A DNA stretch of 64,000 nt, from the NCBI GenBank assembly GCA_012295275.1, contig CM022678.1:17546001-17610000 (forward strand), given 5' to 3'. Below, in pieces: positions 5,688-14,091 of the stretch. A program made the position numbers and the translations under genes. Below the pieces are notes generated by a model that worked only from the letters and a program-made list of their open reading frames with translations, was not told the origin of the DNA and made no database searches. The stretch is from Chrysomallon squamiferum (Eukaryota > Animalia > Mollusca). Each line of letters opens with the position of its first letter. The stretch's first letter is position 1.

Positions 5688-7778
5688 CAAGCAAAGACAA
5701 TCTCTATATAGAAATATATATATATATATCTTACGTCAGTTATATTTAATAACGAACTTATTCATCCACGCATTATTTTTAACTCATTCAGTTCACTTTC
5801 TAATTTCTCTCACTTTCACTTTCACTTTCGTTTTCAACTAACTGAATATTTTGTTTATTTCAGAACTTTTACTTTGCCTCGCCTCTCGTGTGGGATGACA
5901 TCTGTATAGACTTGCGCTGCCTCAATCCGGCCAGTGGTCTCTGCTTCCAGACCTTTGCTCACGACGGAACTCAATGTGGCAGTCAGAAAGTGAGTACTCA
6001 CAACTGATGTCTGTTATGAAAAGGAAATGGCGGTTACTTGTGATGTTTTTTTTTTCTTTTTATTTCTTTTTTTAAATGGCTGTCGTTATAAAATACAACG
6101 ACTTATTTTGATTTTGTTCTTTCGTATGTTTTAAATGTTATGTTGTTTTTCTGTTTTAGCTTTTTGATGGTTTATTGTTCTTGTTGTGTGTGGGTTTTTG
6201 GGTTTTTTTTTTTTTTTTTTTTTTAATATGTTTACTATAACGTGAGTTTGTTATTGATTTCCCTTTTCTTTATTAATTTATTTTTAATATCTCTGAGTTT
6301 TAGTGGCATTAGAACAATTTCTGCTCTGTATCAGGGCTGATTTCATTTTACCGGCATCCCAAGTGTTGTTTATAACGTGCAGTTTGGAAATGTGATCGGC
6401 GCCTGCTGATTTTCTTACAGTTAATTAATTTGTGTCTCGTTTCTTTCAGTGGTGTCAGTCGGGAAGATGCGTGTTCAATGCTGCTGCCCCCACTACACCA
6501 GGTACGTCATCCACCTCGTATTTTAGTTTTTAAGTCTTTTCAAAATATTCTCCTTTTGCAGATTCGTCTTTACGTAGTTCGGAAATGCTCTAATCGTTTT
6601 TCTGTAATAGGTCATCGTAAACGTCCGGATTTTTTTAAACGGATCTCTTCGGTTATTTACGTAATTTTCCGTCTTAAAAGTTTACAGAATGTGATTCGTT
6701 TACATTCGTCGAGCTAATATATACTTCGGAATATTTTCTATATGTTTTTTGTGAGGCGTAAAATCCCGGAATTAACCGACCTGAGTTTCAAATAATTTTT
6801 ATTAAGCGGTTTTTTGACGTACAATGACGGAGTTTACCGAAACGTGTTTGTAAAAAAAAAAAAAAATGTGGAAGAAATATTTCGGACATAACCGTCAGGA
6901 AAATATATCGTTCGGACCTTTTCGGCTGATTACGTTTTCAGAAGATGGCAGAAATTGAAGCGTTCTATGAAAACATGTTTCACGAAAGACCTCTAAGAAG
7001 AATATTTAAGAAGACAAATATTTTTGAATTTGAAGACATCGGAAGATAATTATTTTCAAGGTAAGTGAATTGTGACATTATATAAATTTTAATAAAAATG
7101 TTTGTGTGAATTAAATTACAGTTCATAAATTTGAATTACCTTCGTATAATAAGGACATATACATATATATAAACCTGTAATACTTATTGAACTAGCATGT
7201 ACAGGTATTTATATATATCCTAATCAAAAGTATTGTTCAAATAAAAGAATAATAATACTACTAATAAAATAAATAGAAATCAAAAATAAAATTGTTTGAA
7301 TGAATAAATAAATAAATAAATTTGAGCAATGCCACACTTTAGATATATTACCAGATCAGTCTTACAATAGACAGACAGACAGCTAGACAGACAGATATTC
7401 CTACTGGTATGGATGTGTATATATTGTGAATTTATTTGCTTATTATTCTTATTATTATTCATCTTTTTCTTCTGTTTGTATTTTTTTATTTATCTTTTTA
7501 TTTTAATTCCTTTTTATTACTTACTTTCCTTCTTTCTTTCTTCTCACTTTATTAATTTCTCAATATTTATCTGTTTTTGTCTATTTTAGGAGATGTAGAC
7601 ATTTCCATTTTCAAACATCATCTACGGATGCAACTACAACTACATACATCACATTTAAAAAAAATACACGGAAAAAAAAAATGAATGGAAAATAAATATC
7701 TTCTAAACTTCTTTAGTTGTTTTTCTTTGCTTTACTTTCTATTACATACCTTCTTCGCTGTCGTTTTTATTTCTTTCC

Positions 7779-7821
<43 letters not shown>

Positions 7822-11402: not shown

Positions 11403-11437
11403 TTTTTTAAACCAATATCTATTTACGACTGTTTCAG

Positions 11438-14091
11438 AGAACTGCCACGCAGGTGATGATCCCGACGTCCTGTGTGACTCCAGCAACTGCAACTCCACCG
11501 TCCTGGCCAAGATATTTTGTTGCCAGACGTGTAGCGCTAGTTTGCCGCCACCAGTACGTTTAGTCGCACTGGCTGTCTCGTATACGACTGGCAGTATAAT
11601 GTCTGAGTCGCAGACTTCCATTTCAACGGCGTCGCTCATAGAAATTAGCAGCACGACAGCAACCGCGGGAACCTTCGCAAGTAGCACGACAGCTGCGACT
11701 GGAACGTCAGGAAGCAGTACGACAGCTGCGACTGGAACGTCTGGAAGTAGTACGACAGCAACGTCGGGAACGTCTGGAAGCAGTGCGACAGCAACATCGG
11801 GAACGTCTGGAAGCAGTACGACAGCAACACCGGGAACGTCTGGAAGTAGTACGACAGCAACGTCAGGAACGTCTGGAAGTAGTACGACAGCAACGTCAGG
11901 AACGTCTGGAAGTAGTACGACAGCAACACCGGGAACGTCTGGAAGCAGTACGACAGCAACGTCTGGAACGTCTGGAAGTAGTACGACAGCAACGTCGGGA
12001 ACGTCTGGAAGTAGTACGACAGCAACGTCGGGAACGTCTGGAAGCAGTACGACAGCCACGTCGGGAACGTCTGGAAGTAGTACGACAGCAACACTGGGAA
12101 CGTCTGGAAGCAGTACGACAGCAACGTCGGGAACGTCTGGAAGCAGTACGACAGCAACGTCGGGAACGTCTGGAAGTAGTACGACAGCAACACCGGGAAC
12201 GTCTGGAAGCAGTACGACAGCCACGTCGGGAACGTCTGGAAGCAGTACGACAGCAACACTGGGAACGTCTGGAAGCAGTACGACAGCAACGTCGGGAACG
12301 TCTGGAAGCAGTACGACAGCAACACTGGGAACGTCTGGAAGCAGTACGACAGCAACACTGGGAACGTCTGGAAGCAGTACGACAGCCACGTCGGGAACGT
12401 CTGGAAGCAGTACGACAGCCACGTCGGGAACGTCTGGAAGCAGTACGACAGCAACGTCGGGAACGTCTGGAAGCAGTACGACAGCAACGTCGGGAACATC
12501 TGGAAGCAGTACGACAGCAACATCGGGAACGTCTGTGACTGCCGCAACGACAACGACTGGAACTTCAGCAACACCCTTAACCTCAGAGACTGTTACTACA
12601 CCAATAACCGTTACAACGGAGACGGTTAGCACCTCAGTAAGCAGTACGACAGTAACGTCAGCGACTCCATCAACAACTATTGTACCTACATCGTCTGCAG
12701 CAACGACAGGATCGGTGGTTCGCGTGACCACTCCATTAACGACAACAGCTCCTTCAACAACATTGATACCTACAACAGCCTTGCCATCAACAGGATCCAT
12801 CGTTCGCGTGACGACGCTACTAACAACAGCCGTTCCTACTACAACCGTGCTACCCACCACGCCGGCGCCAACGACCGGGTCTGTGATTCGCGTAACAACA
12901 CCAGTAACAACAGCAGTTCCTACTACCACTGTTATACCTACGACAGCAGCACCAACAACAGGGTCCGTAGTTCGCGTAACAACACCAGTAACGACAGCAG
13001 TTCCTAGTACCACTGTTATACCTACGACAGCAGCACCAACAACAGGGTCTGTAGTTCGCGTAACAACACCAGTAACGACAGCAGTTCCTAGTACCACTGT
13101 TATACCTACGACAGCAGCACCAACAACAGGGTCTGTAGTTCGCGTTACAACTCGAAGAACGACTGCTCTACCAACAACAGGGTCTGTAGTTCGCGTAACA
13201 ACACCAGTAACGACAGCAGTTCCTAGTACCACTGTTATACCTACGACAGCAGCACCAACAACAGGGTCTGTAGTTCGCGTTACAACTCGAAGAACGACTG
13301 CTCTCCCGTCAACTGGGTCCGTGGTTCGCATAACAACACCAGTAACGACAGCAGTTCCTAGTACCACTGTTATACCTACGACAGCAGCACCAACAACAGG
13401 GTCTGTAGTTCGCGTTACAACTCGAAGAACGACTGCTCTGCCGTCAACTGGGTCTGTGGTTCGCATAACAACAGCAGTAACGACAGCAGTTCCTACTACC
13501 ACTGTTATACCTACGACAGCAGCACCAACAACAGGGTCCGTAGTTCGCGTTACAACTCGAAGAACGACTGCTCTGCCGTCAACTGGATCCGTGATTCGTG
13601 TAACAACAGCAGTAACGACAGCAGTTCCTACTACCACTGTTATACCTACGACAGCAGCCCCAACAACAGGGTCGGTAGTTCGCATAACAACACCTGTAAC
13701 GACGGCAGTTCCTACTACAACAGTCGTACCCACAACAGCAGTGCCAACAACAGGGTCTGTAGTTCGCGTAACAACACCTGTAACGACAGCAGTGCCTACT
13801 ACAACTGTCATACCTACAACGGCAGCGCCATCAACAGGATCTGTGGTTCGTGTGACAACTGTTGTTACAACACCAGCTCCAACAACAACAGCGATTCCTA
13901 CAACAGCAGCGCCAACAACAGGATCTGTGGTTCGGGCGACAACGACAGCAGCACCATCCACACGAGTAGCAGCCACAACAGGATCTGTTCTTCGAGTTAC
14001 ACAAACATCAACAGCGGCTCAGTCCACCACTGTGGGAACAACTGGATCAGTGTTGGAGGGAACACACACGACAGGATTTATACCAGCTTAA
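11438..14091 (+). CDS. Alternative terminal exon B of the metalloprotease: PLAC-like six-Cys module plus about 850-aa mucin-like PTS tail
   Basis: Acceptor actgtttcag|AG, phase 1. Reads (E)NCHAGDDPDVLCDSSNCNSTVLAKIFCCQTC in frame with ORF 11542-14091 and ends GFIPA*. AATAAA at 15139-15144 is followed by GT-rich sequence. No protease exons are found between 9373 and 11438. Confidence 0.82.
11687..12535 (+). repeat. Coding 33-bp tandem repeat (TSGTSGSSTTA), about 25 copies
   Basis: Unit gggaacgtctggaagcagtacgacagcaacgtc is repeated with no frame-breaking indels. Confidence 0.95.
12700..14000 (+). repeat. Coding higher-order repeat of 84-bp (TTGSVVRVTTPVTTAVPSTTVIPTTAAP) and 51-bp (TTGSVVRVTTRRTTALP) units
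   Basis: Long and short units alternate in the middle of the array in ORF 11542-14091. Confidence 0.9.

What the first reader, a model, noticed from the sequence alone, without database searches (positions are those of the whole stretch)
6450..14091. Metalloprotease with two paralogous, apparently mutually exclusive terminal exons that swap PLAC-like module and mucin tail
Seen: the last shared exon ends in a phase-1 donor at 6501. Two downstream exons (8292 and 11438) share the acceptor context actgtttcag, are both phase 1, and open with homologous modules: DCHAGNDPDFTC..C..CCAFC and NCHAGDDPDVLC..C..CCQTC. Each has its own stop and a downstream AATAAA. The tails then differ: about 330 aa with Glu-containing TGSLLAES repeats versus about 850 aa with Ser/Gly repeats and Arg-containing TGSVVRV repeats. 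No catalytic exons lie between them. Inference: an exon duplication gave one protease two interchangeable glycosylated tails of different length and opposite charge bias, which could tune mucus or matrix anchoring. I do not recognise this as a described arrangement.
Basis: partly seen in the sequence, partly recalled or inferred. Interest (0 to 1): 0.85.

Follow-up and report, generated by a model that had tools for sequence, protein, structure and literature searches.

The report
Snail protease with two swappable tails
A snail gene for a secreted metalloprotease ends in two intact, anciently duplicated last exons, so it likely makes one enzyme with either a short or a long tail predicted to be sugar-coated; this is a known kind of gene layout, and the splicing has not yet been seen in RNA.

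Summary
Eleven in-window exons encode a MIG-17-like M12B protease, 83% identical over exons 3-11 to Gigantopelta aegis XP_041362132. The phase-1 donor at 6501 joins in frame to exon A (360 codons) or exon B (884 codons). Both open with a homologous six-cysteine module, and no catalytic exon lies between them.

New evidence:
- Exon A is under purifying selection against a second allele (5 synonymous, 2 replacement changes; pN/pS about 0.15).
- Exon B is the ortholog of the G. aegis last exon, so the duplication probably predates that split.
- Both tails repeat a T-G-S-hydrophobic motif (17 and 21 copies), found three or more times only in the closest relatives.

Alternative last exons are therefore likely (0.7), but no splice junction was observed.

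- Homologous C-terminal exon swaps are a described class (77 of 236 human cases).
- AATAAA is uninformative here (3 per kb).
- The module matches neither Pfam PLAC nor ShK.
- The charge contrast is small and not conserved: the G. aegis B-type tail is acidic.

Verdict: a real new member of a known kind, of moderate interest.

The parts
304..460 (+). shared exon 1 in window (prodomain; the signal peptide lies upstream of the window)
   Evidence: matches G. aegis residues 55-104
1070..1193 (+). shared exon 2: end of prodomain, RVRR furin-type site, start of catalytic domain
   Evidence: furin reading from established knowledge
1648..3673 (+). shared exons 3-6 (1648-1726, 2605-2682, 3126-3274, 3636-3673), catalytic domain
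   Evidence: 22/26, 22/26, 40/49 and 7/12 identical to G. aegis
3830..4891 (+). shared exons 7-8 (3830-3935, 4736-4891): zinc motif HEIAHSIGAVHD across the junction, and Met-turn
   Evidence: Reprolysin_2 E=0.0055 on exon 8 alone; reprolysin families above cut-off on the ortholog
5333..5989 (+). shared exons 9-10 (5333-5471, 5864-5989): disintegrin-like / ADAMTS_CR_2 domain
   Evidence: (E 0.004 and 0.001 per exon)
6450..6501 (+). last shared exon with phase-1 donor
8292..8389 (+). exon A 5' part: six-cysteine CCxxC module A
8390..9373 (+). exon A tail: about 325 aa S/T-rich, 17 T-[GA]-S-hydrophobic motifs, 48-nt repeat x10 at 8885-9369, stop TAG
   Evidence: purifying selection against run X1
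8436..8444 (+). possible in-frame cryptic donor CAG|GTTCGT after 8438 (rival cassette use)
   Evidence: not shown to be used
9735..9740 (+). only AATAAA between the A stop and the B acceptor; followed by a genomic A run
   Evidence: candidate only
11438..11532 (+). exon B 5' part: six-cysteine CCxxC module B, ortholog of the G. aegis module
11533..12696 (+). exon B spacer: two motifs, then about 350 aa with no motif, including a 33-nt Ser/Gly/Thr repeat x26.9 at 11647-12535 with no charged residue
12697..14091 (+). exon B distal array: 19 T-G-S-hydrophobic motifs, mostly followed by Arg; 84- and 51-nt units; stop TAA
15139..15144 (+). AATAAA with T/G-rich downstream sequence, best distal poly(A) candidate
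   Evidence: downstream 52% T, 70% G+T; candidate only

Best explanation
This is one snail gene for a MIG-17-like zinc metalloprotease whose last shared exon is likely spliced to either of two duplicated, intact last exons, giving a predicted secreted enzyme with a short or a long serine/threonine-rich tail. Shown from the sequence: the shared exons, the common phase, the two open homologous exons and coding constraint on exon A. Inferred choice of exon: using the A acceptor and cleaving near 9735 gives the short form; skipping A and running on to about 15140 gives the long form, probably the default because the G. aegis record carries only the B-type end. Inferred protein behaviour: both forms are secreted (no hydrophobic anchor at either C-terminus), are activated at the RVRR site and carry O-glycosylated tails that hold the enzyme in mucus or matrix. 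The tails have about the same number of T-G-S-hydrophobic motifs (17 and 21) but differ in reach. In A the motifs start right behind the module; in B 19 of 21 lie beyond a spacer of about 350 residues. The likely functional difference is tail length and reach plus the swapped module, not net charge.
For: Both joins are in frame with canonical ends. Exon A against the DNA run X1 over 8292-8927: 7 differences, 5 synonymous and 2 replacement, no gap in the exon, against 12 differences and 3 gap letters in the 158 adjacent intron bases (tables 3, 4, 8). Synonymous rate 2.85% equals the intron rate 2.88% (40 of 1391); replacement rate 0.44%, Fisher P=0.0009; binomial P=0.02. All 4 differences past the cryptic donor at 8438 are synonymous, so the constraint covers the tail. 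Exon A is 60% GC between 28-29% GC flanks. No Met lies in frame before either acceptor. B groups with the G. aegis last exon (96/91; 21 of 36 identical) and A lies outside that pair (82/80, weak); 9 of the 16 residues shared by A and B use different codons. An exon copy this old and still intact needs an upstream partner, and only exon 11 is there. One 161-nt contig of RNA run X3 covers 9344-9502 at depth 3.2; weak, since DNA can be in such a library. Architecture parallels MIG-17, SS-Pro-MP-DI-PLAC (PMC4856095, passages). A limpet mucus proteome holds a MIG-17-like reprolysin with an S/P/T tail (PMC7333891, passages).
Against: The G. aegis record is a single protein with the B-type end and no isoform suffix. 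A search with module A found no protein at E<=10 among 151 candidates. In the three relative clusters with several models compared, none swaps the module: the oyster isoforms share module and tail, and the two scallop models share the module and differ further downstream. The A poly(A) candidate has a weak downstream element (30% T). The selection test rests on 7 differences from one other allele. Glycosylation, location and the role of the motif are untested.
Confidence: 0.7

Rival explanations
1. Only the B form is made in useful amounts. Exon A is a silent or dying copy, or a last exon captured from a tandem paralog by unequal crossing-over, and is kept open by chance or recent loss of function.
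For: Only a B-type end is on record for G. aegis. Among 293 family modules A's best match is the G. aegis paralog XP_041362139 (18 identities), which has the same longest-contig length and a near accession number. Lottia has two neighbouring family genes. A has a long end branch.
Against: pN/pS about 0.15, open 360 codons, in-frame 48-nt repeats, all six Cys kept, and exon-like GC. The paralog match is not reciprocal. Capture from a paralog would change the origin of A but not its present use.
Confidence: 0.11
2. Exon A is mainly a short cassette: it is left at the in-frame donor after 8438 and joined to B, giving two modules in tandem and the B tail, as in many relatives.
For: CAG|GTTCGT at 8438 is in phase 1 and scores 2.4 bits, within the range of the gene's own donors (-3.2 to 5.4 leave-one-out). 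67 of 150 relatives have two or more modules.
Against: None of the 11 real donors has T at +3. The matrix is poor: nine out-of-phase sites in exon A score higher. The frame stays open for 311 more codons, and the 4 differences past 8438 are all synonymous.
Confidence: 0.07
3. The interval is a misassembly or collapse of two paralogous genes, each with its own last exon.
For: The family occurs in neighbouring copies in other gastropods. No X1 contig spans exon 11 to exon A.
Against: In X1 exons 10 and 11 and the 5' part of exon A are each covered by one contig of similar depth (26, 39.5, 31.1; depth is a poor copy measure). All 30 bins of 5800-10260 are covered. The window has no N and no second catalytic domain. 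A and B are too diverged to be alleles.
Confidence: 0.05
4. On function only (compatible with the best explanation): both forms are made, but the tails are interchangeable mucin filler whose length, repeats and charge drift freely. Any selected difference lies in the 31-residue module or in the two 3' UTRs.
For: Orthologous B tails differ wholly in repeat unit and in sign of charge: +23 in the window, -50 in G. aegis, +15 in Haliotis. Tail lengths among close relatives run from 73 to 852 aa.
Against: The T-[GAQ]-S-hydrophobic motif recurs in all five closest tails despite this turnover (5 of 84 tails with three or more copies), also outside the DNA repeats of exon A. The motif was defined after seeing these sequences.
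Confidence: 0.35

Closest known systems
Tandem duplicated exon substitutions with a C-terminal swap (PMC9741552; abstract passage and passages of the sections on definition, position, structure and discussion)
   Same: Two homologous 3' coding exons in tandem behind one shared donor, giving proteins identical except for a homologous C-terminal region. 77 of the 236 human events are of this kind, and they are enriched in exposed and disordered regions.
   Different: Here the swapped part is very large and unequal (360 against 884 codons), with about 36 alignable residues followed by independently grown repeat tails. Use in distinct transcripts is not shown.
[quoted passage not shown]
   Same: Prodomain, M12B catalytic domain, disintegrin-like domain, then a small cysteine module (PLAC in MIG-17); secreted and matrix-associated.
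   Different: The snail module does not match Pfam PLAC. The passages read describe no long S/T tail and no alternative last exons.
Vertebrate ADAMTS7 and ADAMTS12 (PMC4448532 passages)
   Same: Secreted M12B proteases with a mucin domain and a six-cysteine PLAC module; chondroitin sulfate on the mucin domain may regulate cell-surface association.
   Different: They have thrombospondin repeats and a spacer, the mucin lies among the repeats, and no exon swap was seen in the passages read. The snail protein has no thrombospondin repeat and its tail follows the module.
Gigantopelta aegis XP_041362132.1 'mucin-2-like' and the mollusc MIG-17-like family
   Same: Ortholog: 250 of 302 residues identical over exons 3-11, B-type module, S/T tail with the same motif. 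123 of the 150 best relatives carry the module.
   Different: One annotated protein only; its tail is 567 aa and acidic. Whether its genome holds an exon A copy could not be examined.
Limpet pedal-mucus protein P-vulgata_8 (PMC7333891 passages)
   Same: Secreted reprolysin annotated as ADAM family mig-17, with an S/P/T repeat tail, found in adhesive mucus of a gastropod.
   Different: It lacks HEXXH, and its sequence was not compared here, so orthology is unknown.

Membership tests
M12B (reprolysin) metalloprotease | HEXXHXXGXXHD zinc motif | tested here: met
   HEIAHSIGAVHD across exons 7-8; consensus from PMC4448532
M12B (reprolysin) metalloprotease | Met-turn 14-20 residues after the third His | tested here: met
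   Met 15 residues after the third His (counted on the translation)
M12B (reprolysin) metalloprotease | Pfam reprolysin match above cut-off | tested here: met
   on the ortholog P0001, five reprolysin families above cut-off; single window exons are below cut-off
MIG-17-like ADAMTS without thrombospondin repeats | signal peptide and prodomain | tested here: inconclusive
   prodomain end and RVRR present; ortholog residues 1-54 map upstream of the window
MIG-17-like ADAMTS without thrombospondin repeats | disintegrin-like domain after the catalytic domain | tested here: met
   ADAMTS_CR_2 on exons 9-10 and on the ortholog, E=3.6e-14
MIG-17-like ADAMTS without thrombospondin repeats | orthology to MIG-17 by phylogeny | not tested
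   no MIG-17 sequence was fetched; the label rests on architecture and on source names of relatives
ADAMTS proper | central thrombospondin type 1 repeat, cysteine-rich domain and spacer | tested here: not met
   no such domain on the ortholog or 17 relatives; WxxWxxCSxxC in 0 of 150
PLAC module | six conserved cysteines, C-terminal to the disintegrin-like domain | tested here: met
   six invariant Cys in 39 aligned modules
PLAC module | match to the Pfam PLAC profile | tested here: not met
   0 of 39 modules at E<=10; none of 17 whole proteins at E<=0.1
PLAC module | same fold as a solved PLAC domain | tested here: inconclusive
   36-residue model, pLDDT 86.8; searches of so small a model have little power
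ShKT domain | match to the Pfam ShK profile; CxxxCxxC ending | tested here: not met
   0 of 39; the modules end in CCxxC; the ShK ending is recalled
ShKT domain | three-helix ShK-type fold | tested here: inconclusive
   three short helices; only two chains of 48161 reach Z>=2: Acan1 Z 2.4, rmsd 2.0, 32 aligned and AeTX-K Z 2.3, rmsd 2.4, 31 aligned (that both are ShK-type is recalled); Atlas leads: 0.90 with ShK on 11% of members, 0.75 with ShK on 96%
Tandem duplicated exon substitution (C-terminal) | two homologous coding exons in tandem in one gene, homologous region of 7 aa or more | tested here: met
Tandem duplicated exon substitution (C-terminal) | the two exons are used in distinct coding transcripts | tested here: inconclusive
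   no junction observed; indirect support from selection on A and orthology of B

The most novel reading that the evidence does not exclude
The tails are not plain mucin but multivalent tethers built on a conserved T-G-S-hydrophobic binding motif. The exon swap keeps the number of grips nearly constant (17 against 21) while adding a spacer of about 350 residues, so splicing sets the leash length of a secreted protease: held close to its mucus or matrix anchor in one form, free to sweep tens of nanometres in the other.
Probability: 0.2. Interest if true: 0.7.

Novelty: new member of a known kind. Interest (0 to 1): 0.42.

Why it matters
Mollusc MIG-17-like proteases are a large, barely studied family (1607 representatives at E<=0.001) whose members differ mostly in what follows the disintegrin-like domain. 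One gene with an identical catalytic core and two natural tails is a built-in controlled experiment on what such tails do for location, reach and substrate choice in mucus or matrix. It would also give a first test of the uncatalogued six-cysteine module and of the repeated tail motif. The gene layout itself is not new.

Tried and rejected
Sequencing runs: no RNA holder listed. The one holder, X1 (share 0.37), proved to be DNA, since it covers introns. The six joints listed are short-sided intron or repeat matches, none at 6501. Runs X2 and X4 showed only short repeat matches.

No whole genome is held, so the upstream exons and paralogs in this species were not seen.

Protein searches for a spliced product of this species found none: exon 8 query, 1 hit among 2 candidates, the G. 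aegis protein; module A query, 0 of 151; ortholog residues 395-500 among shorter proteins, 0 of 16. All are weak negatives.

Module identity: no Pfam family, no solved sequence at E<=10, no Foldseek match at E<=0.001, no PLAC chain listed by the wide fold search. A profile of 293 family modules found B weakly (E=0.009) and A at chance level in the window, and no third copy that stands out.

Among the 150 representatives, three pairs were 80% or more identical over 100 aa or more, none compared as an isoform swap. Three clusters with several models showed no module swap.

A likeness between the G. aegis tail end and a scallop tail was reached by 2 of 3000 shuffles with 83 tails compared, so it is only suggestive.

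AATAAA was rejected as evidence. Opposite charge as a conserved trait was rejected. A membrane or GPI anchor on either tail was rejected (terminal hydropathy 0.28 and 0.37).

Literature: searches (listings and abstract starts) showed no paper on this gene or on alternative last exons in mollusc M12B proteases. PMC7736800 passages do not mention it. PMC7164957 and PMC11232982 held no PLAC passage. Supplements were not read and could list the gene.
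Full report
Observation. Eleven exons between 304 and 6501 join into one open frame with canonical ends and finish at a phase-1 donor. The frame continues without a stop into exon A (8292-9373, 360 codons) or exon B (11438-14091, 884 codons). 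Both acceptors read ACTGTTTCAG, the only two + strand copies in the window, and the 50 nt around them are 80% alike. Each exon opens with a six-cysteine module; the two share 16 of 36 residues, a score reached by 0 of 5000 shuffles. No catalytic exon lies between them and there is no second catalytic domain in the 64 kb. Its AATAAA point carries no weight, because the hexamer occurs 3.0 times per kb and 10 times in the preceding intron.

What the protein is. Exon 8 finds one relative, Gigantopelta aegis XP_041362132.1, 84% identical; over exons 3-11, 250 of 302 residues are identical (summed). The window is therefore from a close gastropod relative (inference). The ortholog carries reprolysin and ADAMTS_CR_2 domains and no thrombospondin repeat. 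The window protein has RVRR, HEIAHSIGAVHD and a Met 15 residues further on, fitting the consensus in PMC4448532 (passages). The order prodomain, protease, disintegrin-like domain, small cysteine module is that of MIG-17 (PMC4856095, passages). A search of 1.84 billion representatives gave 1607 relatives at E<=0.001, of which I examined the best 150. Of these, 123 carry the module, 67 carry two or more, 17 have an S/T-rich tail of 100 aa or more, and none has a thrombospondin motif. Those looked up and named are from gastropods, bivalves and a chiton. Duplication of the module is thus routine in the family.

The module. Six cysteines and a glycine are invariant in 39 aligned copies. None matches Pfam PLAC or ShK, and no solved sequence matches the profile. 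The model has three short helices at pLDDT 86.8. The only structural neighbours are Acan1 and AeTX-K at Z 2.3-2.4, and the Atlas gives ShK leads. It sits where PLAC sits in MIG-17 and may fold like ShKT; membership in either is not shown.

Are both exons used? No junction could be observed, and no spliced product of this species was found among proteins. The case is indirect. For B: it is the ortholog of the annotated G. aegis last exon (21 of 36 identical, reciprocal best among 293 modules, 96/91 in a 19-row tree) and is open for 884 codons. For A: DNA run X1 gives a second allele over 8292-8927 with 5 synonymous and 2 replacement changes and no gap, while the adjacent 158 intron bases have 12 changes and 3 gap letters. 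The synonymous rate (2.85%) equals the intron rate (2.88%, 40 of 1391) and the replacement rate is 0.44% (Fisher P=0.0009; binomial P=0.02). The four changes beyond 8438 are all synonymous. Exon A is 60% GC between flanks of 28-29%, and no in-frame Met precedes it. One 161-nt contig from RNA run X3 spans the A stop at depth 3.2, a weak hint. A lies outside the B + G. aegis pair (82/80, weak and on a long branch), and 9 of the 16 residues shared by A and B use different codons, so the duplication is old. An old exon under coding constraint needs an upstream partner, and exon 11 is the only one. Because A holds a stop, B can be reached only by skipping A or leaving it early. This is alternative last-exon use rather than internal mutually exclusive splicing.

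Results against. The G. aegis record is one protein with the B-type end. In three clusters with several models no module swap was seen. A's closest module is that of a G. aegis paralog, not reciprocally, so capture from a neighbour cannot be excluded. An in-frame donor at 8438 could make A a cassette, though it has an unusual T at +3 and the scoring matrix is weak. No X1 contig bridges exon 11 and exon A. Exon B has no allele data. The selection test has only 7 events.

How it likely works. Both forms would be secreted, since neither tail ends in a hydrophobic segment, activated at RVRR and O-glycosylated (established knowledge of such tails; untested here). The proximal poly(A) candidate has a weak downstream element and the distal one a strong one (30% against 52% T), so B is probably the default and A the regulated form (inference). 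The proposed charge contrast is real but small (-4.0 and +2.7 per 100 aa) and not conserved: the orthologous G. aegis tail has 51 acidic and 1 basic residue. What is conserved is a short motif, T-[GAQ]-S-hydrophobic: 17 copies in A, 21 in B, 11 in G. aegis, 5 in Haliotis, 4 in the G. aegis paralog. These are the only 5 of 84 tails with three or more copies, and 20 S/T-rich control tails have 0-2. The motif was chosen after seeing the sequences, and repeats inflate the counts. In A the copies begin right after the module; in B 19 of 21 lie beyond about 350 residues without a motif. The swap therefore changes the module, the length and the reach more than the number of motifs. A mucus setting is plausible from a limpet adhesive-mucus protein of similar build (PMC7333891, passages), and a cell-surface role of a mucin domain is proposed for ADAMTS7 (PMC4448532); neither is shown here.

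Comparison and novelty. Homologous C-terminal exon swaps are a catalogued class: 77 of 236 human tandem duplicated exon substitutions (PMC9741552, passages). Unreviewed earlier notes list several genes with alternative duplicated exons in this same genome (leads only, not tested). Four searches (listings and abstract starts) showed no report of this layout on a mollusc M12B protease; the library lacks most subscription papers, and supplements were not read. The case is a new member of a known kind, unusual in the size and inequality of the swapped parts.

Verdict. Observation confirmed; alternative last exons likely (0.7); function of the tails inferred. Interest 0.42. The boldest reading, a splicing-set tether length built on a conserved motif, has probability about 0.2 and would merit 0.7.

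Noticed in passing
window 8390-9373 and 11533-14091: Both tails repeat T-[GA]-S-hydrophobic (17 and 21 copies). Only 5 of 84 family tails have three or more copies: these two, the G. aegis ortholog and paralog, and the Haliotis relative. The motif was defined after seeing the sequences.
   Followed up: partly
window 11647-12535: An 11-residue Ser/Gly/Thr repeat x27 without a single charged residue. Exon B has 42 SG dipeptides against 11 in A, possible glycosaminoglycan sites as in ADAMTS7 (inference).
   Followed up: no
P0031 (scallop) against the end of P0001: A 22-residue stretch of a scallop tail closely resembles the end of the G. aegis tail; 2 of 3000 shuffles, 83 tails compared.
   Followed up: partly
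P0019, P0154, P0150: Several relatives end their S/T tail in a hydrophobic segment resembling an anchor signal, unlike either window tail.
   Followed up: no
window 16117-17124 (-): Frameshifted fragments that read like an integrase-core DNA transposon (the family likeness is recalled; no Pfam hit for the one fragment scanned), with a 27-nt repeat x6.8 at 15699-15881, just behind the distal poly(A) candidate.
   Followed up: partly
window 17972-23610: Diverged 60-nt satellite, about 84 copies at 18264-23272.
   Followed up: no
window 50305-50886 (+): Tc1/mariner-type transposase fragment: HTH_Tnp_Tc3_2 E=8e-8, DDE_3 E=2e-4.
   Followed up: partly
window 40650-43350 (-): Exons of a neighbouring gene on the other strand that appear to encode a membrane protein with a Pro-rich cytoplasmic tail (read); no Pfam family above cut-off.
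   Followed up: no
window 36133-37038 (-): 301-codon Lys/Pro-rich open frame without a Pfam match.
   Followed up: no
window 8282: The first base of the shared ACTGTTTCAG context differs in run X1, so the 10-nt match is not fixed.
   Followed up: no
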